Source of the DNA: Microcystis aeruginosa NIES-2549
Lineage (GTDB): Bacteria; Cyanobacteriota; Cyanobacteriia; Cyanobacteriales; Microcystaceae
Length of the DNA: 32,000 bases
NCBI RefSeq assembly: GCF_000981785.2
Contig: NZ_CP011304.1
Coordinates: 3,600,001 to 3,632,000, forward strand
Reading direction: 5' to 3'
Both the position numbers and the translations under genes were made by a program. Each line of letters begins with the position of its first letter. The stretch's first letter is position 1. The notes under the pieces were generated by a model that was not told the DNA's origin, did not search any database, and was given only the letters and a program-made list of their open reading frames with translations. Shown piece by piece: positions 6,945 through 24,751 of this stretch.

Positions 6945-6983
6945 TGTAAAGCTGGTACAACCTTTTTTCGCTCGATCCATGTT

Positions 6984-8258: not shown

Positions 8259-8264
8259 ATCCAT

Positions 8265-8953: not shown

Positions 8954-8970
8954 ATCTATTGTCCCTTAGC

Positions 8971-10664: not shown

Positions 10665-10676
10665 CCAGCAATAGAA

Positions 10677-12581
10677 GTTTCAATCCCTAATAGGGTTTAA
10701 GATTAATTGGAACTAGAGCGTCTAGGAGGGCTGCTTATGGCGTAATCGTTTCAATCCCTAATAGGGTTTAAGATTAATTGGAACACTCGCTAAAGTCTTT
10801 GGGGGGAGATGTAGAAATGTTTCAATCCCTAATAGGGTTTAAGATTAATTGGAACATGGGTTAGTCTGTGGGGATAGTATAGAGAAAACTGGTTTCAATC
10901 CCTAATAGGGTTTAAGATTAATTGGAACACAGACTCAACCTTATCAGCAATCTCAACGGTATTGTTTCAATCCCTAATAGGGTTTAAGATTAATTGGAAC
11001 AAGATCGATCTGATCGAGCGATCATCTTCTTTCTTGTTTCAATCCCTAATAGGGTTTAAGATTAATTGGAACATTTAGTGGAATTGGCTAATCAAGCTGG
11101 TGATGGTTTCAATCCCTAATAGGGTTTAAGATTAATTGGAACTGCGCTTTTGATCTCAATAACTCAGGATTTAATAGGTTTCAATCCCTAATAGGGTTTA
11201 AGATTAATTGGAACGAAACCGAAGATTAATTTTATCAGACTCAAACCTGTTTCAATCCCTAATAGGGTTTAAGATTAATTGGAACTGCCGAAAGGCAAAT
11301 TCGCAACTTTTGCGGATTTGTTTCAATCCCTAATAGGGTTTAAGATTAATTGGAACAAGCTTTCTTTCAGTACCCGGCTCACAAGCCTGAGTTTCAATCC
11401 CTAATAGGGTTTAAGATTAATTGGAACTTATTTGATTCCGATAAGCTATTAGAGCAGTTACAAGTTTCAATCCCTAATAGGGTTTAAGATTAATTGGAAC
11501 CTTCTTGTCTGAGGATACTAAATAATCTAGGTTTTGTTTCAATCCCTAATAGGGTTTAAGATTAATTGGAACAACGGACGCGATCGGAACCGTAACGGGT
11601 GAGGGAATGTTTCAATCCCTAATAGGGTTTAAGATTAATTGGAACAAAAGACAAGCTTTTGGGGACTTGGCAAAAAGCCAAGTTTCAATCCCTAATAGGG
11701 TTTAAGATTAATTGGAACGACTTAAGGCCGTCATGGCAGACCGGGATGTAAATGTTTCAATCCCTAATAGGGTTTAAGATTAATTGGAACGCATTAGATG
11801 ATTTACTGCAATCCCTTGAGGGATTGTTTCAATCCCTAATAGGGTTTAAGATTAATTGGAACGCCGTCAAGGCTCAACCCTGCTAACTGGTAAACTCGTT
11901 TCAATCCCTAATAGGGTTTAAGATTAATTGGAACTAGATGGTTTTTTAGGGTGTCTAGAATACTGTTTAGGTTTCAATCCCTAATAGGGTTTAAGATTAA
12001 TTGGAACCCTTCCTTGCTTTAAGCTTGGCAGCGTACTTGTCTGTTTCAATCCCTAATAGGGTTTAAGATTAATTGGAACCTTAATAGCGAGTCACCCTTG
12101 TCGGGGTTAGTCATTGTTTCAATCCCTAATAGGGTTTAAGATTAATTGGAACGGAAATTTCCCCACTGAGAAAGCAGTCCATTAGCGTTTCAATCCCTAA
12201 TAGGGTTTAAGATTAATTGGAACCGTTGACGGCTGCCGTCCGGGAACCGGCGATGAGAGTTTCAATCCCTAATAGGGTTTAAGATTAATTGGAACAGTCT
12301 TCTGGCAATTAGGCCGCGCCCTAAAATTGTGTTTCAATCCCTAATAGGGTTTAAGATTAATTGGAACCCTCACTTTTATACGATTTTATTAATCAATGCC
12401 TAGTTTCAATCCCTAATAGGGTTTAAGATTAATTGGAACAAATTACGGTTTTTTCTGGATCGGCGCGAAGGTTGTTTCAATCCCTAATAGGGTTTAAGAT
12501 TAATTGGAACGAGATCACTTTTACTAATATCCTACTCCAAAAAAGTTTCAATCCCTAATAGGGTTTAAGATTAATTGGAAC
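10677..12581 (-). CRISPR. CRISPR array segment C (leader-proximal): 27 repeats
   Basis: Same 37-nt repeat, first at 10677 and last at 12545-12581. Spacers are 33-36 nt. It lies adjacent to the leader and cas2. Confidence 0.97.
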
Positions 12582-12814: not shown

Positions 12815-13087
12815 CTAAACAAAAAAAATTGTATTATCCCGGGGTAACTCACCACCGATGCGTTCAACTTTACCCCGACAACAGGCACAGAGAAAATAAA
12901 AGCGGATGCTATCGGTATCGGGTTTGATCAACTTACTCAAGCGCCCGCGCAGCTTAGCGTACTGGGTATCGGTTAGATCGCACTCAAAAACACTATACTG
13001 CACCCGTTGGCCGTAGGACTTTAACGTATTGTGAATTTTGGTTCGTCGCTTATCATCGGAAATGTCGTAACTGATAACAAAATACAT
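12815..13087 (-). CDS. cas2: CRISPR-associated endoribonuclease Cas2
   Basis: 90 aa. MYFVISYDISDDKRRTKI..YSVFEC is a canonical Cas2 N-terminus, and the gene is adjacent to cas1 and the leader. Confidence 0.95.
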   Translation of the reverse strand: MYFVISYDISDDKRRTKIHNTLKSYGQRVQYSVFECDLTDTQYAKLRGRLSKLIKPDTDSIRFYFLCACCRGKVERIGGELPRDNTIFFV

Positions 13088-13099
13088 GACCGCCTCTAC

Positions 13100-14104
13100 C
13101 TACTTTAAAATCAAAGGTGGATACTTATCCGTCTCGTCCATCAGATATTTCGCCATTAGTCGGGCCTGAATCTCGAAAGCTTCTTGATAAGTACACTGTT
13201 TACTCATTACCGGATGCTTAAACTTGGATTGTTTCTTCTGTTCGTACAAGCGCAGGAAAATCTGTAATCCCTCTCTCGTCAAGGAAACCGCACCGCTTAA
13301 GGGTTCGGTGGTGAAATGTTCGGGGGTAAGATAAGGATGATTGACCCCATTGAGAACCACGGCATCAACGACGATCGCTCTAAATTCTTCCATCAGATCC
13401 AGTGCCAGCGAGGGGCGACCGTAGCGTTGATAGTGAAGATAACCGAGATAGGGGTCAAAACCGACCAAATTGATCGCACTCTGCACGTCATGGCGCAATA
13501 ACGCATAACCCAGACTCAAAAGAGAATTGACCGGATCTCGCGGGGGGCGACGGTTACGCGAGGCAAAGGTAAAAGTATCGCCGAGAATTAAGGAATCAAA
13601 ACAACTGAAATAGGCTGCGCTTCCCGCTCCCTCTAACCCCCGGAGAGAATCGATCGCCGAGGTTGTTTCGATCGAGCCGATCGCTGCTTCCAGACAAGCG
13701 ATCGCCGTTTGTAAATCCAACTCTTTTCGATCGCGTTGACGACGGAGTAGAATGTTGCGGTAATTCTTCAGCTTGCCGCGGACGAATCCCCGCACTAAAT
13801 GAATGGCTTTCGGGGAATCGCCGGCGGCCTGCCATTGCGCTCGACGAACGAAAATATTTTTGGTCATCTCTGGTTCCAATCTACCGAGATAGCGTCCGGT
13901 GGATGTGACGAAACTCAGGGGAATATGACGTTCGAGCAGTTCGATCACCAAAGCTGGGGATAGCGAACCGCGACCAAATAAAACCACCCCATCAACATTT
14001 AATAAAGGAACATCGAGGATCGTTTCTTTGGATGCTTTGACCGTTAAACGCTCGTCATTTTTGCCGAGAAATGCGTCTTCTCTCGTCACATATACCGTTC
14101 CCAT
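13100..14104 (-). CDS. cas1: CRISPR-associated integrase Cas1
   Basis: 334 aa with Cas1-like motifs (..NSLLSLGYALL.., ..LDLMEEFR..). It sits between cas4 and cas2. Confidence 0.95.
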   Translation of the reverse strand: MGTVYVTREDAFLGKNDERLTVKASKETILDVPLLNVDGVVLFGRGSLSPALVIELLERHIPLSFVTSTGRYLGRLEPEMTKNIFVRRAQWQAAGDSPKAIHLVRGFVRGKLKNYRNILLRRQRDRKELDLQTAIACLEAAIGSIETTSAIDSLRGLEGAGSAAYFSCFDSLILGDTFTFASRNRRPPRDPVNSLLSLGYALLRHDVQSAINLVGFDPYLGYLHYQRYGRPSLALDLMEEFRAIVVDAVVLNGVNHPYLTPEHFTTEPLSGAVSLTREGLQIFLRLYEQKKQSKFKHPVMSKQCTYQEAFEIQARLMAKYLMDETDKYPPLILK

Positions 14105-14109
14105 ATTTT

Positions 14110-14703
14110 TTAGTCTTCCTCTTGATATCGTTGGACTTTTTCAGTTAATCGAGGCAAGCAGCGATCAAACAAACTGCATCCCTTGCAGCGGGGTGAATAG
14201 ACCGCCGGGGGCATTTTTCCCGTCTGGATCAGGGTTTCAACTGCTCGGATCGTAGCGATCGCCCGTTGCCGTAGAGCAAGATCGATCGCCACCGGTTGAC
14301 GCTGGTGAGAACTGGCATAGTAGATATAGCCAGTATCTAGCCTTTTTCCCGTCATTTCTTCCAAACAGATGGCTTGAGCGCACACCTGCAACTCGTCGTT
14401 ATCCCATTCGCCCTTACTGCCCCGTTTGTATTCCACGGGGATAAATTCGCCGTCGTGGGACTCGATCAGATCGGCTTTACCGATGAGACGGTAATTATCT
14501 GATTTAAGCCAGATCGCCCGAATTTGCCATATTTCCTCGCGGTTTCCCGCCCCAACGGTGTGAACTCGTTCGTGTAAATTTGTTCCCTCGATCGTGTAGC
14601 TATTATTAAGAAATTCCCCGGCGACGAACATCCGCCAACAACGGTGGGGACAGTAGGCGTAATGGTTGAGGGCGGCGATCGGTATGTAATCAGATTCATC
14701 CAT
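14110..14703 (-). CDS. cas4: CRISPR-associated exonuclease Cas4 (RecB-like, 4-Cys)
   Basis: 197 aa with an N-terminal YCPHRCW cysteine, C-terminal CKGCSLFDRC cysteines and a PD-(D/E)xK core. It lies immediately upstream of cas1. Confidence 0.9.
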   Translation of the reverse strand: MDESDYIPIAALNHYAYCPHRCWRMFVAGEFLNNSYTIEGTNLHERVHTVGAGNREEIWQIRAIWLKSDNYRLIGKADLIESHDGEFIPVEYKRGSKGEWDNDELQVCAQAICLEEMTGKRLDTGYIYYASSHQRQPVAIDLALRQRAIATIRAVETLIQTGKMPPAVYSPRCKGCSLFDRCLPRLTEKVQRYQEED

Positions 14704-14705
14704 AA

Positions 14706-15539
14706 CTATCTTTTATCTTTAGAAATTCTGCGAGTCATCCCCATTCCCATCGTGGTTTTCCGTCCCACTCCTGCATAGAGGGCAAAGTCCGCCAGTGCAT
14801 TAATCGCTTTAATCTTTGCGGGTTCCACCTCTCCCAAAAGACGATAGTGAATCTCGCCCACACAACCGATCGACTGGTTTTTATAGGCTTCATCGGTTAA
14901 TTTCGTTTGAATATCGAAGAAACTGGGAAAAATCGACTCTAGGGCAATAGAATCGAAGGAGATACCGCTATAGCGATTCCAACGACTGAGAAGGCTATTA
15001 AACACCAGTTCCCGCGTCGGTAAGGCACTATCGAATTTTCCCTGCCGGAAGGTGACGGGGGTAGCGAAAAGGAAATCAAATTCCCGATTCGTTTCCGAGG
15101 CGTTTTCATACAGGTATTGATAAGTACAAGAGTTCGCCCAGGGTTGAACCGATTGCGGGGTGGCGAGGACACTGGTGATAACCAGATCGGCGGAACCGAG
15201 ATGCCAGGGTTGTTTTGGATTGAGATTCAACCAGAGCGGGGTTAATTTACCGAATAATCGGTCATCGAGCAGAGAAATCCGCCACCAGCAGGGAGTTTCG
15301 GGCGCGATCTCCCGTTCGTGTCGCCAGCGTGGGAAATTTATTGTTTTTCTCCTGGACTGCATCTGTAGTGGCGATAAGGTAAAGGCTTTATCCGCATCCG
15401 ATGCGTGTAGAATGTTCCCTAATTCCTGATCGACACTACTGACAAGGGTAAGGAATAGCGCATGAAGGTGTCGTCCGGTGAGAAAATTCGGATAGATCGG
15501 CGATCGGGGTGTGAGATTAAGAACGAGACTATAGGGCAT
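14706..15539 (-). CDS. cas6: CRISPR repeat endoribonuclease Cas6
   Basis: 277 aa with the C-terminal glycine-rich loop GVGRKTTMGMGM typical of Cas6. The start ATG overlaps the upstream stop (TAATG). Confidence 0.85.
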   Translation of the reverse strand: MPYSLVLNLTPRSPIYPNFLTGRHLHALFLTLVSSVDQELGNILHASDADKAFTLSPLQMQSRRKTINFPRWRHEREIAPETPCWWRISLLDDRLFGKLTPLWLNLNPKQPWHLGSADLVITSVLATPQSVQPWANSCTYQYLYENASETNREFDFLFATPVTFRQGKFDSALPTRELVFNSLLSRWNRYSGISFDSIALESIFPSFFDIQTKLTDEAYKNQSIGCVGEIHYRLLGEVEPAKIKAINALADFALYAGVGRKTTMGMGMTRRISKDKR

Positions 15540-16126
15540 TAACTTAATCGGGCCTTGGCAAAAATTTGTCCGGGGGTTAGGGTTAAATCGGGGAGGAGAA
15601 TATCGCTCATCTCGTCATCGCCTTTTTTAATCGCCGGGGGTGCATCGGGATAGAAAATTGTGATCTGCTTGGCCTGGGGATCGACGATCCAGACGCGACT
15701 GACTCCCGCTTTTAGGTAGTCCACGGCTTTTTCGCTCAGGCTGCTGAAAGATTGTTCCGGAGAAATAATTTCGATGACTAATTCCGGGGGAACGGGACAA
15801 GCTTCATCGGTGAGGGTAATATCTCCTAACCTTTCTGGGGAAATGTAGAGGAGATCGGGAACGGGACACCAATCCCGATCGTTTTTGCTTAGGACGATCG
15901 CCCATTCGATTCCCACTTCTCCCCGTCCTTGATTCCAGCGATCGAGTAGGAGAAATAAAGCACCGGTTAAACGAGAATGAAAGAATTTCGGTGACATTTT
16001 CGGGATCGCTTCTCCATCGACTAATTCATAGGTAATATCGCCATCGGGAGGGGTTAGTGAGAGAAATTCCGGTAAAGTGAGGGATTTAGAAGAGATAAGA
16101 GTCATGGTATATAGTGTAGTGAACAT
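15539..16126 (-). CDS. Uma2-family (DUF820) PD-(D/E)xK putative endonuclease embedded in the cas operon
   Basis: 195 aa with YELVDGE.., ..PDLLYIS.., ..PELVIEIISPE.. and ..YLKAGVSRVWIVDP.. motifs, as in the cyanobacterial Uma2 family. Its stop overlaps the cas6 start by 1 nt. Confidence 0.8.
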   Translation of the reverse strand: MFTTLYTMTLISSKSLTLPEFLSLTPPDGDITYELVDGEAIPKMSPKFFHSRLTGALFLLLDRWNQGRGEVGIEWAIVLSKNDRDWCPVPDLLYISPERLGDITLTDEACPVPPELVIEIISPEQSFSSLSEKAVDYLKAGVSRVWIVDPQAKQITIFYPDAPPAIKKGDDEMSDILLPDLTLTPGQIFAKARLS

Positions 16127-16145
16127 ATCCCGCGCCAGATAAAAA

Positions 16146-18881
16146 TCAATCTTGTGTTAGAGCAGAAGTGTAGTTAATAACTACTGATCTATCCTTTGTG
16201 GGGTTATACTGAAGTCTTTCTTGATAGCCATTTGATCTCCATTTAATAAAAACTCCGGGCAAGTCTTTAAACCCTAATTCATGATCGTAGGAATAAGGCT
16301 CAAAAGAATCAGATATGGCTCCCTCCTGAACTGCACAGACTTTGATCACCAGTTCTTTACTGTATGCACATCCCCAATATTTTAAAGGTTCTAACTTATA
16401 TCGAGTTTCTTCCTTGTCGTAAATCCATTCGTACACAGACACATTAGCGTATTGATTTGTGTAATTTCCTTCATTATTCTTTTTCAAGATTAAACGATCA
16501 ATAGAGACTTGAATTTGAGGAGATTCTTTGACAATTTTTTCTAAACTATCACCCTGCTTACCGTCATCATATACCAAGGTAACGGATGGAGTCCAGCTAC
16601 GGGTGATTACTAATCCTTTTTCATGAGCAGATTGACAAGTGAGATCGGCATTATAAACATAGTCTTGCAACAGGGAAAAAAGCTCAACAACTCGATAATC
16701 ATCAATTGTCTGTTTTGTAGAAACACAATTCATGATCGCTTTCGGATCAAAGTTTTGATCGTGCAAACCCTTAAGAATTGTTTTATAATTCTCTAGTTCT
16801 GCCTCGCTTAAAGTATTAACAAATTCAGGAATATTATTGCCAATAACAATGATTTTTGCATCTTCAACATTACCTTTCCGATTGCAACGTCCCGCTCGTT
16901 GAATTAAACTTTCTGGGTTACACAGTTGAGTAATCAAACGGGTACTATTTAAATCACAACCAACTTCGATCGCACTGGTAGTAACCAGAATATAAGCTTG
17001 GTCATTTTCATCTCTCTCTTTTAATCTTTGATAAAGATTGGTTCGAGAATAATGGGAAGTTTTGGGAATATCTGACAAACGACCATGATAGAGAAACAAA
17101 AATTCTTTTTTTTCTGAAAATTTAATGTTTAATGTCTGTTTTATTTTTTCATAAATTGCTATCGCATCTTTAACAGTTTCTACAGAAACGATGATACGAT
17201 GGCTTGGGTTAGAGTTCCATTCTTCAAGTGCTATTGAGGTCAACTTTTGTTGTAAATTTGTTGGTTCTTCGTAAAATTCAAACTGTTTTAAATTAGAATA
17301 GTCTTGCTTCAAAATTTGCTGATAAAAATTATTTAGCTTCTCTAGATTGTCCTGAACATCAATGTAATCGATCATGTTATCCGCAAGATAATCGAATCTT
17401 TCCAGATGATTTTGTGATAAAGTTGCCGTCATTAAAACAAGCGAGCATCCTGCTTCATACAAAGCTTTAACCAAACTGCAAAAGTTAGTAAACGAAATAT
17501 CATCATAGGTATGAGCTTCATCAAAACAAATCAGTGTATTACCATGATAAATTCGATAGGGAAAGATGAATGATTTTTGCTTATCACCATAGCCAAAGTA
17601 TCGATATATAAATTTATCAATCGTTGTTAAAATAATATCTCCTTTGTATAAATGTCTTCGAGAATTATTGCTAGATTTAACTTCTCCATCTAGATAAACA
17701 TATCGATTCATTTCGGTTCCTGTATCTATCACCAAAGACACTTCACGTCCTTTGTGTAGGAGTGAAAATTGTTTTAAATATTTATCGCATCTCTGTTTTT
17801 GATCTTCTAACAAACTTCGTGCAGGTAGGGGTATAATCAGGCGAGGTCTATCTTCTTTTGTAGATAGCATAGCTAAAAAGGGAATAATAATCGCTTCAAA
17901 TTTTCCCGCTCCTGTAGGAGCTTTAAGTATAAAAGCTGGATGCTGGTTTTTAACCATCGTTTGAAACACTTCCTCCTGCATTGGATTAGGTTGAAAATTC
18001 GCTAATTCTTCATACCACCAAAAAATTGCATTTTCTGATTTTTCTGATGGGGAATAAGTGTTTGAATTATCAGGTTTGATAATGGCAGTAATTGCTCTAT
18101 CTTCACTGATTGTATGTTCGTTTTTTTTCCACCACTCTTTAACAAGAGTATTCAATTTACTTCCTAATTCTTTATCTTTTCGGTTTTCGTGTAATTGTTG
18201 GAGTTGATTTTTATCCTCGTCTGACAAGTTATATGTCCACGAACGAAAATTTAAAGTGATAGTTGGTTCTTTAAAAGGATAGGGATCGAGATAAAAAACA
18301 CGGTGGTTGCTATCTTCGGATGTACCTTTAGTTATTGTAAAATCCATAAATGTGCGAGATTTTGCCTGTTCGTCGTCTCCAATGACACGACAAGCTAATT
18401 CCGCTTCAATTTGATCGCACATTTCCAAAATATAAAGTTCTTTGGCGTATTGTAAGGGGTCTTTAGAGAAAATCTTCTGATATTCAGTATCTTTTTTTAA
18501 TTGATAGGTATCCTTGATAATTTCCTTAGTTGAATAGTCATGATGTCCTCTCGCTAGAGCCTGCACCCAAAGATTTTGTGGGTTATCTACTTTAAATCGA
18601 TGCCCTTTAAATGAATAAGTATATTTTGTAAACTCTCCCTGTTTATTAGTTTCAACGCGAATCTTGAAAGTTTGTGGTTTAGCTTTGTCGTGTAAATTGA
18701 TTCCTTCAATAACTCGTTCTAGAGAAAAGTTGCCATCTTGCCATTTTCTGGCTAATTGTCTAACATTACCTACATGATTACCCAGGGGTTGAAAAAGAAT
18801 TTTATCAGGAGCAATTGTAGGTTCGCCTGGAAAAAACACGCGGCCGAATTTGAAAAAAGGTTGAGGGTTAGATTTAGACAT
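16146..18881 (-). CDS. cas3: Cas3 helicase-nuclease with an N-terminal HD domain
   Basis: SF2 helicase motifs APTGAGKF, FDEAH, MTATLS, VTTSAIEVGCD and QRAGRCNR. N-terminal HD pattern, numbered from MSKSNPQ: H36, H64-D65-x2-K68 (NLHDKAKPQTF), H94, H113-H114 (GHHD), D156. ATG 18881 overlaps the cas5 stop by 8 nt and is preferred over the track's 18911. Confidence 0.9.
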   Translation of the reverse strand: MSKSNPQPFFKFGRVFFPGEPTIAPDKILFQPLGNHVGNVRQLARKWQDGNFSLERVIEGINLHDKAKPQTFKIRVETNKQGEFTKYTYSFKGHRFKVDNPQNLWVQALARGHHDYSTKEIIKDTYQLKKDTEYQKIFSKDPLQYAKELYILEMCDQIEAELACRVIGDDEQAKSRTFMDFTITKGTSEDSNHRVFYLDPYPFKEPTITLNFRSWTYNLSDEDKNQLQQLHENRKDKELGSKLNTLVKEWWKKNEHTISEDRAITAIIKPDNSNTYSPSEKSENAIFWWYEELANFQPNPMQEEVFQTMVKNQHPAFILKAPTGAGKFEAIIIPFLAMLSTKEDRPRLIIPLPARSLLEDQKQRCDKYLKQFSLLHKGREVSLVIDTGTEMNRYVYLDGEVKSSNNSRRHLYKGDIILTTIDKFIYRYFGYGDKQKSFIFPYRIYHGNTLICFDEAHTYDDISFTNFCSLVKALYEAGCSLVLMTATLSQNHLERFDYLADNMIDYIDVQDNLEKLNNFYQQILKQDYSNLKQFEFYEEPTNLQQKLTSIALEEWNSNPSHRIIVSVETVKDAIAIYEKIKQTLNIKFSEKKEFLFLYHGRLSDIPKTSHYSRTNLYQRLKERDENDQAYILVTTSAIEVGCDLNSTRLITQLCNPESLIQRAGRCNRKGNVEDAKIIVIGNNIPEFVNTLSEAELENYKTILKGLHDQNFDPKAIMNCVSTKQTIDDYRVVELFSLLQDYVYNADLTCQSAHEKGLVITRSWTPSVTLVYDDGKQGDSLEKIVKESPQIQVSIDRLILKKNNEGNYTNQYANVSVYEWIYDKEETRYKLEPLKYWGCAYSKELVIKVCAVQEGAISDSFEPYSYDHELGFKDLPGVFIKWRSNGYQERLQYNPTKDRSVVINYTSALTQD

Positions 18882-19698
18882 TAATTGATTCTCTTTGTAA
18901 AAGTTCCACAAGTGCTACAGGAATCTGAAGATTTCCATCCGTATAGAAATCTAAAGTGGGTAAAGGATGGGCTTTTTCGGGATAGTAAGCGGCAACAAAG
19001 GGGATAAAACCATTAATAGGAGATCGCTCTGTATCGAACAATCCCTTATCTTCATCTTGAGTCTGATCTGCTGACCATTCATGACGATAGAGATTATAAA
19101 TATCACAACGATTGATACAAGGATTTCGCTGTATTAAAGCTTCCATTGGAACAACAGTTGACGGGTGAGCGGAAAGAATCTTTCTTTGGAGTCGTATAGA
19201 TTCAGATACCTCGTCAATCACCGCAAATCCTTCCTTACCAATTTTACATCCGACTCCTTGTAGGTTAGAAAATGCCTCTAGACTGGACTTAGATTCGCTT
19301 ACAACATAGCCGATTAACTCCTCAGCGATAAAATATTCCCAAGTGTGTAACTGAAAGTTTTCTCGATCGCCATCAATGTATAGTCTAGAAAAAACATCAT
19401 GGTTAAACGATCGAGTTCCTTTGCGATGAGTACGATGGACTCCAGACCATTTATCTAGGACTGGATAGGCTCCTAACGCTATATACTGACGAGGTAGGGT
19501 GAAATAAGGCGGATTTTCCTTGTTAATGCTGGTTTCAGGGATATCTAATCCCTCGCTTAACATTACTATCCGTCGGAGAAACCCAGAAAAAGTAGTCGGT
19601 GGGACGAAGGGATAAGTGGCGATATTGAGAATCGATCCAGGCAGTATGCGAAATGTCATCGCCGCCGTTGGGATAATCTTAAAGGTCAGGCAATACAT
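18874..19698 (-). CDS. cas5: Cas5 (Csc1-like) Cascade subunit
   Basis: 274 aa. The N-terminal ..TYPFVPPTTFSGFLRRI.. matches the Cas5 RAMP signature. It lies between cas7 and cas3, with a 3-nt gap to the cas7 stop. Confidence 0.75.
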   Translation of the reverse strand: MYCLTFKIIPTAAMTFRILPGSILNIATYPFVPPTTFSGFLRRIVMLSEGLDIPETSINKENPPYFTLPRQYIALGAYPVLDKWSGVHRTHRKGTRSFNHDVFSRLYIDGDRENFQLHTWEYFIAEELIGYVVSESKSSLEAFSNLQGVGCKIGKEGFAVIDEVSESIRLQRKILSAHPSTVVPMEALIQRNPCINRCDIYNLYRHEWSADQTQDEDKGLFDTERSPINGFIPFVAAYYPEKAHPLPTLDFYTDGNLQIPVALVELLQRESINV

Positions 19699-19701
19699 GA
19701 T

Positions 19702-20595
19702 TTATGCTTGTAAAACTGTATCGACGAATATTGCGGAGTATTCTTGCAATTTGGCTAACGCTTCATTGCCTATCCAGCGATCGAAGTGCGCTTCTTGAAT
19801 ATGATTAGTGAAATTAGTTTCAGGATACAGTGCCAAATAAAGGAAATCATTGATCGCCTTTTGCGGGTCGGTTTCCGAGGGAGAAACGATTGGACGCTTC
19901 CCTCTAGGAGATAAATATCTATCCAAAACCAGAAGCGGGGTACGATCGTCCGTTTCCGCGATAGCAATTCCTTTCGGATTTCCTGAACCTATGCGAGGTA
20001 ATGAATCTAAGAAAGCATAAGCCACAGCTGAAAAGTCTTGATCGGTGATACTCAGAGCGTGGTTATAAACGGGATAGAGAATGCCGGGTTGATTGTATTC
20101 TCGTCTAAAAGGTGTGGGAGTTTCATCATTTCGATTGACCAATAAAGCGGGGTGCATTGCTCGTTGTTTTTCGACCGGGTAAATCTCTTGTATGGCAACA
20201 CCTCCACCATGAGTTACCCGACCGATTAAAGTCCGTTTTCCTGGATCGAGTGCGCCAAATGTAGCACAAATCGGACAAGTGGGTTCAGCACAGGTTTTGG
20301 GAATTCCGCAGTTTTGTTTATCTCCTAGCAGTTCTCCACTTTTCACAGGAGACCATAGTAAACAACGTCGTTCAACTCCTCGCCGTTTGGTCGGAGAAAT
20401 ATAACATTTTTCAATTTCTTTACCATCTTTTGTACTCAGTTTAACGATTTCAACTAAGTTAACATTAACCTGTACTTCATGTCCTAGGTAAAGCTCTTGA
20501 GAGCCTTCGAGAATGGCATAAATATCAAAATGCAATCTAGGTTTATTAGCATCAGTCTTAGGTAGTCCAGTCGTCACTTTAGATTCGGTAGCCAT
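19702..20595 (-). CDS. cas7: Cas7 (Csc2-like) Cascade backbone subunit
   Basis: 297 aa in the position directly after the large subunit, with an AAGGAG SD inside the upstream gene's end. It has a Cys cluster CAEPTCPICATFG. The family assignment rests on context and a remembered resemblance to Csc2, and it needs an HMM check. Confidence 0.7.
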   Translation of the reverse strand: MATESKVTTGLPKTDANKPRLHFDIYAILEGSQELYLGHEVQVNVNLVEIVKLSTKDGKEIEKCYISPTKRRGVERRCLLWSPVKSGELLGDKQNCGIPKTCAEPTCPICATFGALDPGKRTLIGRVTHGGGVAIQEIYPVEKQRAMHPALLVNRNDETPTPFRREYNQPGILYPVYNHALSITDQDFSAVAYAFLDSLPRIGSGNPKGIAIAETDDRTPLLVLDRYLSPRGKRPIVSPSETDPQKAINDFLYLALYPETNFTNHIQEAHFDRWIGNEALAKLQEYSAIFVDTVLQA

Positions 20596-20597
20596 CG

Positions 20598-21116
20598 TTA
20601 TTTATCTCCTTTAGATGAAAGTTTACGAACCAATTCAGGAAACCGCGTATAAAGAGAAAGTTTGAGATTATAAGTTAAATTCTTCCACTCTTTTTCTTGT
20701 GCATAATTACCTACTTGATCAGGATTAGCAAAATAGGCATAAGATTTGGTGATGTCGTCAGCATAAAAAACAAGCCATTTTTTACCCGAATTATCAACTT
20801 CTTCTCTATTAGTGATTTCTAGCTTATTTTCTAGCATTTTTTTTGCTTGTTCGTAGATAAAGTAATTATCAGGATTGTGATATAGCCTTGCTTGAACACT
20901 AATTTTCTTTTCATCTCCTAATGTCGCATAATAACTAAAAGCAACAGGATCATCTACTTTTTCTATTAATTTACTTACCTCACGTTCTGCATCTTCTGGC
21001 TTCATTAATTTTTTAGCAGTACTTTCTAAAGATTGGGCAAAAGCGTAAGTTAATCCTGTCAATGCGGCCACGTCTTCATATAATTTTGCCCGTTTCCAAA
21101 GTGAATCGATAGTCAT
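20598..21116 (-). CDS. Candidate internally translated small subunit (Cas11-like), in frame within the large-subunit gene
   Basis: In-frame ATG at 21116..21114 preceded by AAGGAG (21127..21122) with a 5-nt spacer. It would give the 172-aa helical C-terminal product MTIDSLWKRAKLYEDV..SSKGDK. Confidence 0.45.
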   Translation of the reverse strand: MTIDSLWKRAKLYEDVAALTGLTYAFAQSLESTAKKLMKPEDAEREVSKLIEKVDDPVAFSYYATLGDEKKISVQARLYHNPDNYFIYEQAKKMLENKLEITNREEVDNSGKKWLVFYADDITKSYAYFANPDQVGNYAQEKEWKNLTYNLKLSLYTRFPELVRKLSSKGDK

Positions 21117-23129
21117 AGTTTCTCCTTGAATATCTTGGATGATGGTTTGCAAATATTGTTCCCTAACTCGTTCCAATAATAAACGGTCAGAAATACTGGA
21201 AGCTTTAAGTAATGTATAGTCTGCTAAGTAGGGTGAATCTTGTTGTACATAACGAATCGCATCTCCTAGTTTAAGGTTAATATCTTTCCCACTGACGATA
21301 ATTGATTGATCATAACCTTCTATCAAACCTTTAATAAATATTAATTGACGGCTTACTAAAACTTTTTCTGTTCTTTGAAGCTGAAGAACAAATTTAAAAT
21401 CTTTAATAACCTCTAAGGGAAAAATCGAGGCAACTTTTGCTAAAGCATATTGAAACTGTCCTAGTTTTTTTGAAGCGGTATCTCCTGTGATTGTTTTTTC
21501 AGAAGTTAGGGCAATGTAACAACCCGAAGATAAATGTACTTCTTTATTGGTTAGCATTCGCAAGTAGTCTTTGATTTTAACTTTCGTTACACCTCTATCA
21601 TCTTGAGATTCAAGTCGTAAGATAATACTATCATCCGTTACTTTTAAGGGGGAGGCAAACGATAATACAGAACAAGAAGAGCAAATGAAAGGTCTATCTT
21701 CACTAGAGGATGATTGACGACGTTGAGACGGTCGCTCGAACATAAATCTAGCTACTCTCCATCGCACAGTTTTAGCATCTAAAGTTACTCCGCAAGAGTA
21801 ACAAAAATCTTTACCATCGTCTCCCGCTGTCCTTGCTGCTAAAATTTTTGGGTTAATCGTTAAAAGCGGTTCTGGAATGGTTTCGAGTTTTGGATTTTCT
21901 AACAAACGATACATCTCTAATATACATTGAGTGAAAATATCGCCACGAGTCGAGTTAATTTGTTCTGTGGCAGTTTTGTTAAAAGATTTAGCGATCGCCT
22001 GAATTGGCTTCAATAGATCTGTTTGTTTTTGTTTTTCTATAAACTCAAACGGATTTCCGTCTGATTCTTCTAGAAATCTCTGCTTCTCCTCGATCGAATC
22101 TTCCTGAAAAATAATTTGTGACTCTATTTTATCCTTTTGCTTCTGTAATTTGCTAACTTGAGCTTTTGACAAACCAGTTTTTCCTAACTGCTCATCAAGG
22201 TTTCTTCTTTCATGATAAATAGCTCGTTGCTCATCTAATAATTTAGACAAAACTTTCTGAAAATAATCTCTATATTTATTAAACTCTTTAGCTTGCATTT
22301 CCTGCTTGCTTTTTAGCTTCTTTTCAGTGGACTCTAAATCTTTCGAGTTAAGTTCTTCGGATTTAATTTGCTCAATAAGTTGAACGATCTCAGTCTCACG
22401 CTTCTCTTGGCGATCCTTTACTTGCTCGAAAATAGCTAAATAAAAAGCCGCTAACACCTTGGCTTGATCTCTGGTAATTATCGGAATTTCTAGGGTGCTA
22501 AAACCTCGTCCCGCTAAGGGAACACTTTTTAGCATTGTGATAAAAGTTTGCATTAATCCTGATAGCTGATATTGAAAATCACCATAGATAGAAAAAATAA
22601 CTTTCGTGATAAATTCTATCCAAAGCTCCTCTATATTATGTGATTGTTGAGTTTGTGGAATAAAAATCTGCACATGGTAATTACTTTCATGCAGGGAAAC
22701 AATCTGATATTTTTTTTGCAAAAACTCTAAAAACCGATCAATCGTGCTTTCATGAGTTAATTTTGCTTGTAGCTCTCCCGGTGACGGTGATTTGTACACA
22801 AGCTGTATTTCACCTATCTCTCGTTCTCGATAAAAAACTTGATTCCCTTGAAACGTGGGTTTAATGAACTCGCTTTCTTTTTGAGGTTGAGAAAGTCGTA
22901 ACTGTCTAACCAATTTAGGACAATCAAAAGTTTTGGCGATCGCTATCGCTCTTGGATCGTCAGCTAAAGCGGAAATCAATGTCGAGTCGGTTTGAGCGAT
23001 CGCATTTGCGGTCAAAGCACTCAATAAGATAGTAATTTCAAGTTCGCTAATTTCTTCCGAAGTCGTAACCGCTTTTGTATCTTGCTCTGGAGAAACATTC
23101 TCGAAAAGTGAAAGTTGTTTAATCGACAT
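20598..23129 (-). CDS. cas10d: Type I large subunit, Cas10d/Csc3-like or Cas8-like, lacking an HD domain
   Basis: 843 aa, first large gene of the effector operon. It has a zinc-finger-like CYSCG..(about 40 aa)..CSSCS. There are only 7 His and no His-Asp dipeptide, and no GGDD motif. It carries a K/E/Q-rich coiled-coil segment. The call rests on position and size. Confidence 0.6.
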   Translation of the reverse strand: MSIKQLSLFENVSPEQDTKAVTTSEEISELEITILLSALTANAIAQTDSTLISALADDPRAIAIAKTFDCPKLVRQLRLSQPQKESEFIKPTFQGNQVFYREREIGEIQLVYKSPSPGELQAKLTHESTIDRFLEFLQKKYQIVSLHESNYHVQIFIPQTQQSHNIEELWIEFITKVIFSIYGDFQYQLSGLMQTFITMLKSVPLAGRGFSTLEIPIITRDQAKVLAAFYLAIFEQVKDRQEKRETEIVQLIEQIKSEELNSKDLESTEKKLKSKQEMQAKEFNKYRDYFQKVLSKLLDEQRAIYHERRNLDEQLGKTGLSKAQVSKLQKQKDKIESQIIFQEDSIEEKQRFLEESDGNPFEFIEKQKQTDLLKPIQAIAKSFNKTATEQINSTRGDIFTQCILEMYRLLENPKLETIPEPLLTINPKILAARTAGDDGKDFCYSCGVTLDAKTVRWRVARFMFERPSQRRQSSSSEDRPFICSSCSVLSFASPLKVTDDSIILRLESQDDRGVTKVKIKDYLRMLTNKEVHLSSGCYIALTSEKTITGDTASKKLGQFQYALAKVASIFPLEVIKDFKFVLQLQRTEKVLVSRQLIFIKGLIEGYDQSIIVSGKDINLKLGDAIRYVQQDSPYLADYTLLKASSISDRLLLERVREQYLQTIIQDIQGETMTIDSLWKRAKLYEDVAALTGLTYAFAQSLESTAKKLMKPEDAEREVSKLIEKVDDPVAFSYYATLGDEKKISVQARLYHNPDNYFIYEQAKKMLENKLEITNREEVDNSGKKWLVFYADDITKSYAYFANPDQVGNYAQEKEWKNLTYNLKLSLYTRFPELVRKLSSKGDK

Positions 23130-23216
23130 AGTGCTGTCCTTCCTTGATTTCTTGTCTTGAGGGAGTAGGCTGAAAAGTGCCTACTTCCGCTCTCTAGAGG
23201 CGTTATTGCCAGGATT

Positions 23217-23360
23217 CTAGGTTAAATCAGCGAAAATTCTGACTTCGCCTTCAGAATCCAAGACTGGAGACTGCCTCAGTTCTTTGATTTGGCACTGAAG
23301 AAGCTCGATTTGGTCTTGAATAATTTCGATTTGCTGGTGAATATCGTCAACATTAGGCAT
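23217..23360 (-). CDS. Small 47-aa coiled-coil protein, first ORF of the cas transcription unit
   Basis: ATG 23360 is preceded by GGGAGG with a 6-nt spacer. The product is MPNVDDIHQQIEIIQDQIELLQCQIKELRQSPVLDSEGEVRIFADLT, with heptad-like I/L spacing. The longer track ORF (start 23426) lacks an SD. Confidence 0.5.
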   Translation of the reverse strand: MPNVDDIHQQIEIIQDQIELLQCQIKELRQSPVLDSEGEVRIFADLT

Positions 23361-23473
23361 TACTGACCTCCCTTGTATTTTTATTGACGTGGGTATCCAT
23401 CTGGGGTCAGCTTTGCTATAATGCAAGTACAGAAATTTTTGTATAGATAGCCGACCCCAAAACGGCTTCTTTT

Positions 23474-23502
23474 AATATAGATCACTGTTCACGTCGTTAC
23501 AA
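23474..23502 (-). promoter_or_regulatory. Candidate cas operon promoter (-35 TTGTAA 23502..23497, 17-nt spacer, -10 TATATT 23479..23474)
   Basis: This is the best sigma70-like hexamer pair on the minus strand upstream of the small ORF and large-subunit gene. It is a motif-based prediction only. Confidence 0.35.
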
Positions 23503-23543
23503 GTGCGAGGCTAAAAAAGCCAATTATTCTCTTAAGCATATCA

Positions 23544-23552
23544 TGGTAAGAT
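23544..23552 (+). promoter_or_regulatory. Candidate extended -10 (TGGTAAGAT) for the mini-CRISPR RNA
   Basis: A TGN plus -10-like hexamer ending about 4 nt before psiR1. A second extended -10, TGCTATAAT, lies at 23414-23422. No good -35 was seen for either. Confidence 0.25.
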
Positions 23553-23555
23553 AAT

Positions 23556-23652
23556 CGATCACTGAACCCCTGATACTAAGAGGGATTGAAACGTCACGAG
23601 TGGTGAGGCTACTGTTTAGCCTTTTCATCGAATCCCTATTAGGGATTGAAGC
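23556..23652 (+). ncRNA. Degenerate mini-CRISPR (psiR1 - short psi-spacer - psiR2); candidate CreR/CreA-like regulatory crRNA-like RNA
   Basis: 23581-23592 AGGGATTGAAAC equals the last 12 nt of the crRNA-sense repeat. 23631-23652 AATCCCTATTAGGGATTGAAGC matches 20/22 nt of the repeat's 3' half. Both copies retain a hairpin. The orientation is opposite to the main array. Confidence 0.55.
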
Positions 23653-23653
23653 C

Positions 23654-23712
23654 AGACAGGGCAATATGCGATCTTTGTCTATGAGGTTGTCCATGCTACT
23701 CTGTCTTTTTTT
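23654..23712 (+). terminator. Candidate intrinsic terminator downstream of the mini-CRISPR
   Basis: AGACAGGG (23654-23661) pairs with CTCTGTCT (23699-23706), including one G-U, and is followed by T6 (23707-23712). The loop is long (37 nt), so confidence is moderate. Confidence 0.35.
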
Positions 23713-23893
23713 GTTCACTCCAAATATCTGCCGTTTTAGATCGCCCGAACTCCCCACAACGATGTGGCGGTGACACCATATCGTCAGTGGTATATCCTCC
23801 TCATTTCCTCTTACCATAGCTTTTTGAGATCATTTATCATTACAATATAGGCATCGTAGCACAAATATTCTAAAACTACAAGTACATTTTCAG

Positions 23894-24751
23894 GTGAACC
23901 GCAAAAAAGAAACAATTACACTGTCAATCCCTCCCGGCACGAAGGAGAAGCTAGAGGCGATCGCCCGACACTTTAACATCTTTTGGGGGAAAAGTCCTAG
24001 TCCGTCAGGTCTAATCGCCGCCATCGCCGAAGGAGAACTGGAGATCGGTGAATCTTTTACCCTCTCGACGAAGCAGGTCGAAGCGATTAAGGAAGCGATC
24101 AACCGTCTGGTGCGATCGGGTCACATCAAACAGGCCCAGACTCTTTCTAATTTTCTTTTAGAAAAGGGAAATCTCTCCCCTCAAGAGCGTCGGGAGATTT
24201 CCGAACAGGTGAGTCAGTACGATCGCGATTGGCGGCTCGCGGTGGAGAGCTATATCCATGACAGGCAAGCTTTTCGGGTAATGTACAAAGATTCTCAGGG
24301 ACAGACCCTAGAATTTACTGTTCGCTCTGCCGAGATCATGTTTCGGGAAAAAGAATTCTATCTGGATATCTGGTGTGAGGAAACTGAGGGACTGTCAGAA
24401 GAAGATAAAAGAGACTTTCCCGAACTTGTTCACAATCGCTGTCTTAAATTCTCTCGTATTCAAAGCCTGATCCCGATCGAAGAACCATGGCGAGACAGTC
24501 TCGATTTTATAAAAGTACAATTACAATTAGAAAAAGACCTCGTGAAGGCTTATGAAAGGAAGGCAAGGGATATCGACGACCGAGAGGTAAACGGAAAAAG
24601 GATTATAACCCGTAAAGTCTCTAGTCATTTTTGGTTAATTCGGGAGATTTTACCCTATGGAGATCGCTGTATTGTACTTACACCAGAGCCATTACGCAAC
24701 CGGATCAAACAAATGTTATTAAATCTTCATCAACAATACGAATCGGGGTAA
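23894..24751 (+). CDS. RHH-WYL domain transcriptional regulator, divergent from the cas operon (Sll7009-like CRISPR regulator class)
   Basis: 285 aa with a GTG start. The N-terminal ETITLSIPPGTKEKLEAIARHF looks like ribbon-helix-helix. The central ..FRVMYKD..EFTVRSAEIMFREKEFYLDIWC..RCLKFSRIQS.. fits the WYL pattern. The C-terminal ..ILPYGDRCIVLTPEPLRNRI.. is WCX-like. Confidence 0.7.
   Translation: MNRKKETITLSIPPGTKEKLEAIARHFNIFWGKSPSPSGLIAAIAEGELEIGESFTLSTKQVEAIKEAINRLVRSGHIKQAQTLSNFLLEKGNLSPQERREISEQVSQYDRDWRLAVESYIHDRQAFRVMYKDSQGQTLEFTVRSAEIMFREKEFYLDIWCEETEGLSEEDKRDFPELVHNRCLKFSRIQSLIPIEEPWRDSLDFIKVQLQLEKDLVKAYERKARDIDDREVNGKRIITRKVSSHFWLIREILPYGDRCIVLTPEPLRNRIKQMLLNLHQQYESG

What the first reader, a model, noticed from the sequence alone, without database searches (positions are those of the whole stretch)
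12815..23129. Sharp compositional break inside the cas operon: GC-rich adaptation/cas6/uma2 module versus AT-rich effector cassette
I hand-counted GC in sample 60-nt lines. In cas1, the uma2-like gene and the WYL gene (12815-16126 and 23894-24751), values run at roughly 42-62% GC with dense HIP1 (GCGATCGC) sites. Lines in cas3, cas5, cas7 and the large-subunit gene (16146-23129) run at roughly 17-43%. The switch occurs within the 20-nt gap between uma2 and cas3. The effector cassette thus looks like a replacement dropped between an older regulator and an older cas6-cas4-cas1-cas2-array module. This would be modular shuffling that pairs a resident Cas6/repeat/adaptation set with a foreign interference complex.
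Basis: partly seen in the sequence, partly recalled or inferred. Interest (0 to 1): 0.65.

Follow-up and report, generated by a model that had tools for sequence, protein, structure and literature searches.

The report
Swapped effector cassette in Microcystis CRISPR
A Microcystis CRISPR locus keeps its regulator, spacer-acquisition genes and spacer array but has had its 7.7 kb DNA-cutting gene set exchanged for an unrelated one; the GC break marks the seam, and this kind of swap is already known.

Summary
The GC break is real. The maximum-likelihood change point is at 16084 (support 15926-16145): GC is 0.49 on the cas2-uma2 side and 0.37 on the cas3-cas8 side, and GC3 is 0.51 against 0.28. It coincides with a homology breakpoint at the conserved uma2 start codon (16105).

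In other Microcystis genomes the same frame holds unrelated type I-D cassettes instead of the window's I-B-like cas8-cas7-cas5-cas3. The frame is the divergent WYL regulator plus uma2-cas6-cas4-cas1-cas2 and the same 37-nt repeat, with proteins 92-100% identical. One I-D contig also shares 4.4 kb of upstream flank at 98.9% with an I-B-like locus.

Three corrections apply:
- The effector family occurs across cyanobacteria and normally sits on this same type of frame, so it is not alien.
- HIP1 sites do not separate the modules.
- About half of the GC3 step is generic. Adaptation GC3 exceeds effector GC3 in 45 of 45 I-B-like and 26 of 26 I-D loci elsewhere, by about 0.10.

In situ effector replacement, and a cas6-cas4-cas1-cas2 module shared by I-B and I-D, are already published. 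This is a well-mapped new example of a known kind.

The parts
1305..12581 (-). CRISPR array. 114 copies of the 37-nt repeat were located by a full-length match; crRNA sense is GTTCCAATTAATCTTAAACCCTATTAGGGATTGAAAC. 111 spacers were extracted. Two IS insertions interrupt it, at about 6945-8264 and 8954-10676.
   Evidence: The insertions encode DDE transposases. The repeat is identical to that of Microcystis I-D loci (DR1 in PMC4428289).
12815..13087 (-). cas2
   Evidence: TIGR01573 and PF09827. 100% identical to Cas2 of the I-D locus L001.
13100..14104 (-). cas1 (Cas1d type)
   Evidence: TIGR04093 cas1_CYANO, 420.9 bits against a cut-off of 385. The exact protein is encoded next to an I-D cassette in CP191408.1.
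14110..14703 (-). cas4
   Evidence: TIGR00372 and PF01930.
14706..15539 (-). cas6 (Cas6d type), the crRNA-processing endoribonuclease
   Evidence: PF19308 and PF10040; PADLOC Cas6d PDLC02042, E = 9e-143.
15539..16105 (-). uma2 (PD-(D/E)xK-like, DUF820). It is the first gene of the retained module. The conserved start is ATG at 16105; the longest ORF runs to 16126.
   Evidence: PF05685. All uma2 copies align from this ATG, and the sequence upstream is specific to each cassette. uma2 is present between effector and cas6 only in Microcystis loci and in L090.
16106..23792 (-). The exchangeable effector cassette (7.7 kb). It has no DNA similarity to the I-D cassette that occupies the same slot in L001, L093 and L094.
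   Evidence: blastn breakpoints. The GC change point at 16084 coincides with the right boundary.
16146..18911 (-). cas3 (helicase, with an N-terminal region presumed to be an HD nuclease). The start used in other genomes corresponds to 18881.
   Evidence: TIGR01587 cas3_core, PF22590 and PF00270. PADLOC Cas3 models cover residues 37-834.
18874..19698 (-). cas5 (I-B-variant profile)
   Evidence: PADLOC Cas5b PDLC01389, E = 3e-131. No Pfam or NCBIfam hit.
19702..20595 (-). cas7 (I-B-variant profile)
   Evidence: PADLOC Cas7b PDLC01388, E = 2e-139. 681 homologues, 70-87% identical across cyanobacterial genera. No PDB sequence match.
20598..23129 (-). cas8 large subunit (I-B-variant profile). The C-terminal ~350 aa is a divergent allele compared with NIES-843.
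   Evidence: PADLOC Cas8b PDLC01527, 1221 bits. Mosaic identity profile.
23557..23652 (+). Two repeat-like units (about 23557-23593 and 23616-23652), antisense to the cas operon, inside the cassette-specific intergenic region. Candidate regulatory mini-array.
   Evidence: The second unit matches the repeat's 3' half at 18 of 19 positions; 0.03 such matches are expected by chance. A unit in the same orientation occurs in 30 of 58 I-B-like loci.
23793..24751 (+). Retained left frame: the WYL/WCX regulator gene (23894-24751) and about 100 nt upstream of it.
   Evidence: PF25583 WCX and PADLOC WYL. 94-95% DNA identity to I-D loci L001, L093 and L094, ending at 23793.

Best explanation
The locus has two parts.

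The first is a conserved frame: a divergently transcribed WYL regulator on one side, and uma2-cas6-cas4-cas1-cas2 plus a long 37-nt-repeat array on the other.

The second is an exchangeable 7.7 kb effector cassette (16106-23792). It holds its own upstream region with a repeat-like mini-array, followed by cas8-cas7-cas5-cas3 of an I-B variant family that is widespread in cyanobacteria.

In the Microcystis gene pool the same frame carries one of at least three unrelated cassettes: this I-B-like one and two type I-D variants. One of the I-D variants (D1) occupies the same chromosomal site as the I-B-like cassette. The window's arrangement arose by replacement of the cassette through recombination in or at the edges of the shared flanks. 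That the same frame carries different cassettes is shown; the recombination mechanism and the direction of replacement are inferred.

Inferred mode of action: Cas6 cuts the pre-crRNA 3' of the CCCT-ATT-AGGG hairpin. This leaves the 8-nt AUUGAAAC handle that both cassette types use. The spacer store and the Cas1-Cas2-Cas4 acquisition machinery are kept while the interference complex is changed.

The GC break marks the cassette boundary. Roughly half of its size is a generic property of such loci, in which effector genes are AT-richer at synonymous sites than adaptation genes. The rest reflects this cassette's very AT-rich, IS-like composition against a frame that resembles core genes.
For: Break and boundary:
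- The GC/GC3 step and its change point at 16084 are.
- All uma2 copies align from the ATG at 16105, with cassette-specific sequence upstream.

Same frame, different cassette:
- The window's exact Cas1 lies next to cas10d-csc2-csc1-cas3d in CP191408.1.
- DNA homology to that locus covers only 24329-23793 and 16090-12042.
- L094 (I-D) and L003 (I-B-like) share 4.4 kb of upstream flank at 98.9%.

Recombination scar:
- NIES-843-type loci contain a 10 kb block, WYL to cas3 plus uma2 plus 95 nt of cas6.
- It sits inside a second I-D variant and is flanked by a 272-nt direct duplication.

Phylogeny:
- In the Cas6+Cas4+Cas1 tree the Microcystis frame is sister to an I-D-linked, uma2-bearing locus (L090), with 100 of 100 bootstraps.
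- I-D-linked and I-B-like-linked frames are interleaved. There are 15 Fitch changes against 16.5 under random labels.

Shared crRNA format:
- Both cassette types use the same repeat family ...CCCTnnnAGGGATTGAAAC, in some cases the identical repeat.
- WYL lies divergently upstream in 40 of 55 I-B-like and 17 of 27 I-D loci.

Synonymous-site composition:
- GC at 4-fold sites is 0.295 for the effector and 0.634 for the frame.
- Microcystis flank genes are 0.49-0.60 and IS genes 0.367.

Precedent:
- In situ effector replacement and a shared I-B/I-D cas6-cas4-cas1-cas2 module are described in PMC5704561 and PMC12669027.
Against: - Polarity is not proven. No core-genome tree of Microcystis strains was available to reconstruct which cassette was ancestral at this site.
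- The trees are neighbour-joining trees on protein distances, and most I-D loci come from metagenomes without taxonomy.
- The adaptation-over-effector GC3 offset occurs in 71 of 71 other loci. Composition therefore says little about how recent the event was.
- Among I-B-like loci, effector and frame distances correlate moderately (Spearman 0.60). The two modules are therefore not fully decoupled.
- Nothing here tests whether the I-B-like complex actually loads crRNAs made by this Cas6 or recognises the PAM that this Cas4-Cas1-Cas2 selects.
Confidence: 0.8

Rival explanations
1. The frame moved, not the cassette. An I-B-like locus arrived with its own WYL and cas6-cas4-cas1-cas2. These were later overwritten by gene conversion from a co-resident I-D locus, that is, concerted evolution of adaptation modules within a genome.
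For: - Many Microcystis genomes hold both cassette types in one composite locus.
- Across cyanobacteria, I-D-linked and I-B-like-linked frames are interleaved and seem to follow host lineage. Repeated homogenisation would also produce that pattern.
- The frame is itself mosaic between strains: Cas1 is 100% identical to L001 but Cas6 only 94%.
Against: - The shared sequence extends 4.4 kb beyond WYL into unrelated neighbouring genes at 98.9%. The simplest reading is that both flanks stayed and the middle changed.
- uma2 is absent from I-B-like loci of all other genera. It is present in the I-D-linked sister locus L090.
- Published cases favour effector replacement (PMC5704561).
Confidence: 0.12
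2. The GC break has nothing to do with transfer. It is an intrinsic, selection- or mutation-driven difference between effector and adaptation genes, and the locus has been inherited as one unit.
For: - Adaptation GC3 exceeds effector GC3 in 45 of 45 I-B-like loci (mean +0.118) and in 26 of 26 I-D loci (mean +0.093) outside Microcystis.
- The two values correlate at r = 0.94 across hosts.
- Adaptation genes sit at the level of flanking genes (+0.015), and effector genes about 0.10 below it.
Against: - Strain comparison shows the exchange directly, whatever the composition.
- The Microcystis step (+0.24) is twice the usual offset. It is also larger than in the Microcystis I-D locus on the same frame (+0.15).
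Confidence: 0.06
3. The junction is an assembly artefact, or a pseudo-operon with a decayed, non-functional cassette.
For: The array carries two IS insertions and an IS630 element sits next to WYL. The region is therefore prone to rearrangement.
Against: - The same architecture is present in three complete genomes (AP009552, AP019314, CP012375) and several draft genomes, at 94-100% identity.
- All nine genes are intact ORFs.
- Cas7 is under strong conservation across genera.
Confidence: 0.02

Closest known systems
In situ replacement of effector modules on a retained adaptation module (Hudaiberdiev et al. 2017, BMC Evol Biol, PMC5704561; listed as a major trend in Makarova et al. 2025, PMC12669027)
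   Same: - Near-identical cas4/cas1/cas2, here with cas6 as well, are joined to unrelated effector genes in close relatives.
- Flanks are syntenic on both sides and the boundaries resolve to the nucleotide.
- That paper explicitly notes a cas6-cas4-cas1-cas2 arrangement shared by some I-B and I-D systems.
   Different: - Microcystis is not named in the main text of that paper.
- Here the retained frame also includes a WYL regulator and a uma2 gene.
- Three cassettes share one frame.
- A composite locus preserves a 272-nt duplication scar.
Microcystis aeruginosa 'subtype I-D' DR1 locus (Kuno et al. 2012; Yang et al. 2015, PMC4428289) and the TiD genome-editing system from strain PCC 9808 (Osakabe et al. 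2021, PMC8216271)
   Same: - Same repeat family (DR1) and the same Cas6d/Cas4/Cas1d/Cas2 module.
- Yang et al. note four extra predicted genes (cas8a, cas5, cas7, cas3-I) with no TIGRFAM hits in NIES-843 and PCC 9443. These are this cassette.
   Different: - The window has no Cas10d, Csc2 or Csc1 at all, so it is not a type I-D system despite the literature label for DR1 loci.
- The passages of those papers returned by term searches (GC content, hybrid, I-B) describe neither a cassette exchange nor a compositional break.
Type I-B CRISPR-Cas (Cas8b-Cas7b-Cas5b-Cas3, for example Synechocystis PCC 6714, PDB 8H67, PMC11096372)
   Same: - PADLOC's CAS-I-B profiles match Cas8, Cas7 and Cas5 strongly.
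- Same gene order, large subunit-cas7-cas5-cas3, followed by cas6-cas4-cas1-cas2.
   Different: - No sequence similarity detectable by phmmer or hmmsearch to any solved Cascade subunit.
- No Pfam or NCBIfam model recognises Cas8, Cas7 or Cas5.
- Cas6 and Cas1 are of the 'd' type.
CRISPR repeat-like regulatory mini-arrays (Shmakov et al. 2023, PMC10120712)
   Same: Repeat-like units lie in a long intergenic region next to the large-subunit gene of I-B and I-D loci. This matches the element at 23557-23652.
   Different: No target for the 22-nt spacer was found nearby. The unit is antisense to the cas operon and lies upstream of WYL.

Membership tests
In situ effector-module replacement | Closely related genomes carry near-identical adaptation modules joined to unrelated effector modules | tested here: met
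   Window against L001: Cas1 100%, Cas2 100%, Cas4 98%, Cas6 94%, Uma2 92%. There is no DNA match between 16091-23792 and L001 541-7875.
In situ effector-module replacement | Syntenic flanks on both sides of the replaced segment | tested here: met
   Left flank: L094 (I-D) 647-5071 matches L003 (I-B-like) 2284-6708 at 98.9%, covering the 488-aa MotA/ExbB-like gene, its neighbours and WYL. Right flank: L094 itself ends inside cas3d, so the evidence comes from the other I-D loci, L001 7876-8427 and L093 14215-14480 against L003, at 97-98% over uma2.
In situ effector-module replacement | Sharp boundaries at nucleotide level | tested here: met
   The left boundary is 23793 in three independent I-D loci. 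The right boundary is at the uma2 ATG, 16105.
Type I-B effector module | Cas8b, Cas7b and Cas5b recognised by subtype profiles | tested here: met
   PADLOC PDLC01527 (1221 bits), PDLC01388 (E = 2e-139) and PDLC01389 (E = 3e-131). However, there are no hits in Pfam or NCBIfam.
Type I-B effector module | Cas3 with helicase and HD nuclease | tested here: inconclusive
   The helicase core is clear (TIGR01587, 153.5 bits; PF22590). The N-terminal 300 aa is covered only by PADLOC Cas3b and Cas3c alignments. No dedicated HD model hit was obtained.
Type I-B effector module | Similarity to an experimentally solved I-B Cascade | tested here: not met
   No PDB chain matched Cas7, Cas8 or the Cas7 profile at E <= 0.01. 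The AlphaFold model was unusable (pLDDT 31.6).
Type I-D system | Signature genes cas10d, csc2 (cas7d) and csc1 (cas5d) | tested here: not met
   None is present in the window. The Cas7d profile scores only E = 0.025 on Cas7, and hhalign of Cas7 against Csc2 profiles gives 3% probability.
Type I-D system | Cas1d and Cas6d adaptation/processing module and DR1-type repeat | tested here: met
   TIGR04093 scores 420.9 against a cut-off of 385. Cas6d PDLC02042 matches. The repeat is identical to that of I-D loci.
Recently acquired foreign island (by composition) | Composition departs from the host and from neighbouring genes beyond what related loci show | tested here: inconclusive
   The effector's 4-fold-site GC (0.295) is far below Microcystis flank genes (0.49-0.60) and close to IS genes (0.367). 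But an offset of about -0.10 relative to flanking genes is the rule in 33 of 34 I-B-like and 10 of 11 I-D loci, and cas8 holds three HIP1 sites.

The most novel reading that the evidence does not exclude
The break may be one instance of a general rule that does not appear to have been described. In type I-D and I-B-like loci the interference genes sit about 0.10 GC3 below both the adaptation genes and the host background. This held in 71 of 71 loci, in hosts whose GC3 ranges from 0.2 to 0.85.

That pattern would be the compositional footprint of two evolutionary regimes inside one operon. The crRNA-processing, acquisition and array frame would be resident. The effector cassettes would belong to a circulating, AT-rich pool that is repeatedly swapped in.

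In Microcystis the swapping would let a cell keep more than 100 spacers while changing the complex that phage inhibitors target. Microcystis phages carry exact copies of this very repeat and may attack the shared frame instead.
Probability: 0.3. Interest if true: 0.55.

Novelty: new member of a known kind. Interest (0 to 1): 0.35.

Why it matters
The window gives a base-pair-resolved natural example of an effector cassette exchange in a bloom-forming cyanobacterium:
- One regulator, one Cas6/repeat format, one acquisition module and one spacer store serve at least three unrelated interference complexes.
- One of those complexes is the type I-D system already used for genome editing.
- The I-B-like Cascade therefore probably accepts the same crRNAs as the I-D complex, which is directly testable.

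It also has practical consequences. Subtype calls based on Cas1, Cas6 or the repeat, as in the Microcystis literature, can mislabel the effector. A GC step inside a cas operon should not by itself be read as recent foreign origin, because the offset is systematic.

Tried and rejected
- **Structure of Cas7.** AlphaFold2 on the 14-sequence alignment gave pLDDT 31.6 and pTM 0.21. This is unusable, so no fold search was run.
- **Remote homology to type I-D.** hhalign of the Cas7 profile against a Csc2 profile gave 3% probability. phmmer and hmmsearch against PDB gave nothing.
- **PAM from protospacers.** The 111 spacers, joined without repeats, gave no credible hit in 50,697 phage records. A local search of the first 50 kb of Ma-LMM01 also found none. 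The apparent phage hits were repeat copies, not protospacers. The PAM therefore could not be derived.
- **Target of the mini-array spacer.** No seed match was found in 22900-24100.
- **Kuno et al. 2012** (PMC3416447), which first described the extra genes in NIES-843, is not held.
- **Effector and frame distance ranks among I-B-like loci.** The correlation is only moderate (rho 0.6) and did not discriminate.
- **HIP1 density as a marker of residency.** Rejected: the sites occur in both modules.
- **The 'I-B1' system of FACHB-524** (PMC11855584). It has a different repeat and is not this cassette.

Full report
**What is in the window**

The window comes from a Microcystis genome. Its right flank is 100% identical over 5.9 kb to M. 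panniformis FACHB-1757 (CP012375), and the cas region is 99.3% identical.

A cas operon lies on the minus strand:
- cas8 20598-23129
- cas7 19702-20595
- cas5 18874-19698
- cas3 16146-18911
- uma2 15539-16126
- cas6 14706-15539
- cas4 14110-14703
- cas1 13100-14104
- cas2 12815-13087

It is followed by a CRISPR array (1305-12581). A full-length search located 114 copies of the 37-nt repeat and gave 111 spacers. Two IS insertions interrupt the array. A WYL/WCX regulator (23894-24751) is transcribed divergently.

The gene identifications differ in strength.
- Cas1 passes the curated type I-D model (TIGR04093, 420.9 bits against a cut-off of 385).
- Cas6 matches PADLOC's Cas6d profile.
- Cas8, Cas7 and Cas5 have no Pfam or NCBIfam hit. 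They match PADLOC's CAS-I-B profiles very strongly: 1221 bits, E = 2e-139 and E = 3e-131.

**The observation**

The compositional break is real.
- GC3 is 0.47-0.55 in uma2 through cas2 and 0.27-0.34 in cas3 through cas8.
- A one-change-point likelihood fit places the break at 16084, with support interval 15926-16145.
- The LLR is 67.2, against at most 21.5 in block shuffles.
- 60-nt lines differ with p = 2e-16.
- The contrast is larger at 4-fold degenerate sites, 0.634 against 0.295, so it is not a by-product of amino-acid content.

- HIP1 sites are not concentrated in the GC-rich part: there are two in cas1/cas4 and three in cas8.
- cas5 and cas7 are low only at third positions.
- The rise on the WYL side is weak and lies inside the 5' end of cas8.

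**What the break corresponds to**

A look-up of the window's exact Cas1 protein found it in another Microcystis chromosome (CP191408.1, locus L001). There it follows WYL | cas10d-csc2-csc1-cas3d | uma2-cas6-cas4, a type I-D cassette.

At DNA level the window matches L001 in only two stretches:
- 24329-23793, which is WYL and about 100 nt upstream of it, at 94%;
- 16090-12042, which is uma2 through the array, at 93-95%.

The 7.7 kb between them has no counterpart.

An alignment of six cas3/csc1-to-uma2 junctions shows that all copies become alignable exactly at a conserved ATG, window position 16105. Everything upstream of it is specific to the cassette. The GC change point therefore sits on a module boundary.

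Two metagenomic Microcystis I-D contigs (L093, L094) end their homology to the window at the same left position, 23793. L094 also shares 4.4 kb further upstream with the I-B-like locus L003, at 98.9%. That stretch holds a 488-aa MotA/ExbB-like gene and its neighbours. The two cassette types thus occupy the same chromosomal site between conserved flanks.

**A third cassette and a scar**

In NIES-843, NIES-102 and related contigs the I-B-like block lies inside a second I-D variant. Its Csc2 is 38% and its Csc1 30% identical to those of L001.

The order there is:
1. cas10d-csc2-csc1
2. WYL
3. cas8-cas7-cas5-cas3
4. uma2 plus the first 95 nt of cas6
5. a 3' fragment of csc1
6. uma2-cas6-cas4-cas1-cas2

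A 272-nt direct duplication brackets the inserted 10 kb. It consists of the end of csc1 plus the first 75 nt of uma2, and occurs at L007 5053-5324 and 15374-15645 with 97% identity. This is the kind of footprint left by recombination between loci.

**Is the pairing unusual?**

It is not. A scan of one genome per species with a Cas7 alignment returned 80 loci. More than fifty are cyanobacterial, from many genera, and the others come from Chloroflexota, Poribacteria, Deltaproteobacteria and Acidobacteriota, among others.

In the cyanobacterial loci whose contigs extend far enough, the order is cas8-cas7-cas5-cas3-cas6-cas4-cas1-cas2, usually with WYL divergently upstream. Most non-cyanobacterial loci show the same order but no detectable WYL. 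In cyanobacteria Cas7 is 70-87% identical to the window, Cas1 63-75% and Cas6 48-67%. uma2 between cas3 and cas6 is confined to Microcystis.

A metagenome scan with Csc2 gave 80 type I-D loci. In a neighbour-joining tree of concatenated Cas6+Cas4+Cas1 (803 columns), frames linked to I-D and to I-B-like cassettes are thoroughly interleaved. Effector type needs 15 Fitch changes on the tree, against a mean of 16.5 under random labelling.

Both cassette types use the same repeat family, ending in CCCTnnnAGGGATTGAAAC. In some cases the repeat is identical, for example L156 (I-D) and L050 (I-B-like).

The Microcystis frames form one clade regardless of cassette, with 100% bootstrap. Their sister, also at 100%, is L090. 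That locus is a canonical I-D locus carrying uma2 between csc1 and cas6. This makes an I-D origin of the uma2-bearing frame the most economical reading, with the I-B-like cassette as the incomer. Polarity nevertheless remains an inference.

**How much of the GC step is special?**

About half of it. Outside Microcystis:
- adaptation GC3 exceeds effector GC3 in 45 of 45 I-B-like loci (mean +0.118);
- it does so in 26 of 26 I-D loci (mean +0.093);
- the two values correlate at r = 0.94 across hosts.

Adaptation genes sit at the level of flanking genes (+0.015) and effector genes about 0.10 below it.

In Microcystis the step is +0.24 for the I-B-like cassette and +0.15 for the I-D cassette on the same frame. 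Within Microcystis the frame resembles core-like genes at 4-fold sites (0.63 against 0.49-0.60). The I-B-like cassette resembles IS genes (0.30 against 0.37). The two I-D cassettes are intermediate at 0.44 and 0.54.

A GC step inside a cas operon therefore flags a module boundary. It does not by itself show recent or foreign origin.

**Mechanism**

Shown:
- the same frame carries different cassettes;
- the boundaries are sharp;
- both cassette types use one repeat format.

Inferred:
- Exchange occurs by recombination using the 93-100% identical flanks within the Microcystis gene pool.
- Cas6 processes the array transcript, which yields the 8-nt AUUGAAAC handle.
- The resulting crRNAs load into whichever Cascade is present.
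- The Cas4-Cas1-Cas2 module, and hence spacer and PAM choice, stays the same.

The I-D version of this frame is experimentally active (strain PCC 9808; PMC8216271). The I-B-like version has not been tested, and its subunits have no solved relative.

**Comparison with the literature**

Hudaiberdiev et al. 2017 describe in situ replacement of effector genes with the adaptation module left untouched. They cite syntenic flanks and nucleotide-level boundaries, and they note a cas6-cas4-cas1-cas2 arrangement shared by some I-B and I-D systems. Makarova et al. [quoted passage not shown]

For Microcystis, Yang et al. 2015 label all DR1 loci 'subtype I-D'. They mention, after Kuno et al. 2012, four extra predicted genes without TIGRFAM hits in NIES-843 and PCC 9443.

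The kind of event is therefore known and the extra genes had been seen. What this analysis adds is:
- the exact seams;
- the same-site evidence;
- the third cassette and the duplication scar;
- the finding that the compositional offset is systematic.

**Verdict**

The case is a new, well-resolved member of a known kind and of moderate interest.

Noticed in passing
L173 603-781 (Ma-LMM01 NC_008562.1 about 35764-35942); L174 605-717 (MaMV-CH01 PP681321.1 about 40326-40438): Microcystis phages carry copies of the window's CRISPR repeat.
- Ma-LMM01 has three copies at 36 of 37 identity, two of them inside annotated '56 bp repeat units'.
- MaMV-CH01, CH02, DL01 and DL02 have two perfect 37-nt copies. 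These are separated by a 39-nt stretch that is the inverted complement of the TATAAT-containing sequence just upstream.
- They look like phage mini-arrays or solitary repeat units, which are candidate RNA anti-CRISPRs. Microcystis is not named in the main text of the Racr paper.
   Followed up: partly
window 23557-23652 (+ strand): Two repeat-like units lie in the cas8-WYL intergenic region, antisense to the cas operon, with a 22-nt spacer between them. The second unit matches the repeat's 3' half at 18 of 19 positions. A unit in the same orientation occurs in 30 of 58 I-B-like and 6 of 37 I-D loci, and in the examples compared by eye (L019, L029, the window) its loop matches the local array repeat. 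This is probably a regulatory mini-array of the kind described by Shmakov et al. 2023. No target was found nearby.
   Followed up: partly
L010-L172 (71 loci with both modules): Adaptation genes have higher GC3 than effector genes in every one of 45 I-B-like and 26 I-D loci outside Microcystis (means +0.118 and +0.093; r = 0.94). Adaptation genes match flanking genes and effector genes sit about 0.10 lower. One literature search found no description of this offset.
   Followed up: partly
window 20598-21650 (3' third of cas8): cas8 is mosaic between strains. The first ~500 aa are 92-100% identical to the NIES-843 allele. The last ~350 aa are only 22-60% identical and differ in length (843 against 894 aa). 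The neighbouring Cas7 is 100% identical. This points to allelic replacement or diversifying selection on the C-terminal domain, possibly the small-subunit part.
   Followed up: partly
L007 5053-5324 and 15374-15645; L009 same layout: NIES-102 and NIES-843 carry a nested locus. The WYL-to-cas3-uma2 block, with 95 nt of cas6, is inserted into a second I-D variant and flanked by a 272-nt direct duplication. This leaves two uma2 copies and a csc1 fragment. No cas3 helicase gene lies next to that I-D cassette in these loci.
   Followed up: partly
window 6945-8264, 8954-10676 and 24860-25826: Two IS elements (DDE_Tnp_1; DUF772 plus DDE_Tnp_1_2) are inserted in the CRISPR array. They split it into three blocks. 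An IS630-family element with a split transposase lies just beyond WYL.
   Followed up: no
window 16146-23129 proteins: Cas8, Cas7 and Cas5 belong to a family with 681 or more Cas7 homologues. Pfam and NCBIfam do not recognise them, no PDB chain matches them by sequence, and sources mostly name them 'hypothetical protein'. Subtype calls for such loci therefore rest on Cas1 and Cas6, which gives the misleading label 'I-D'.
   Followed up: partly
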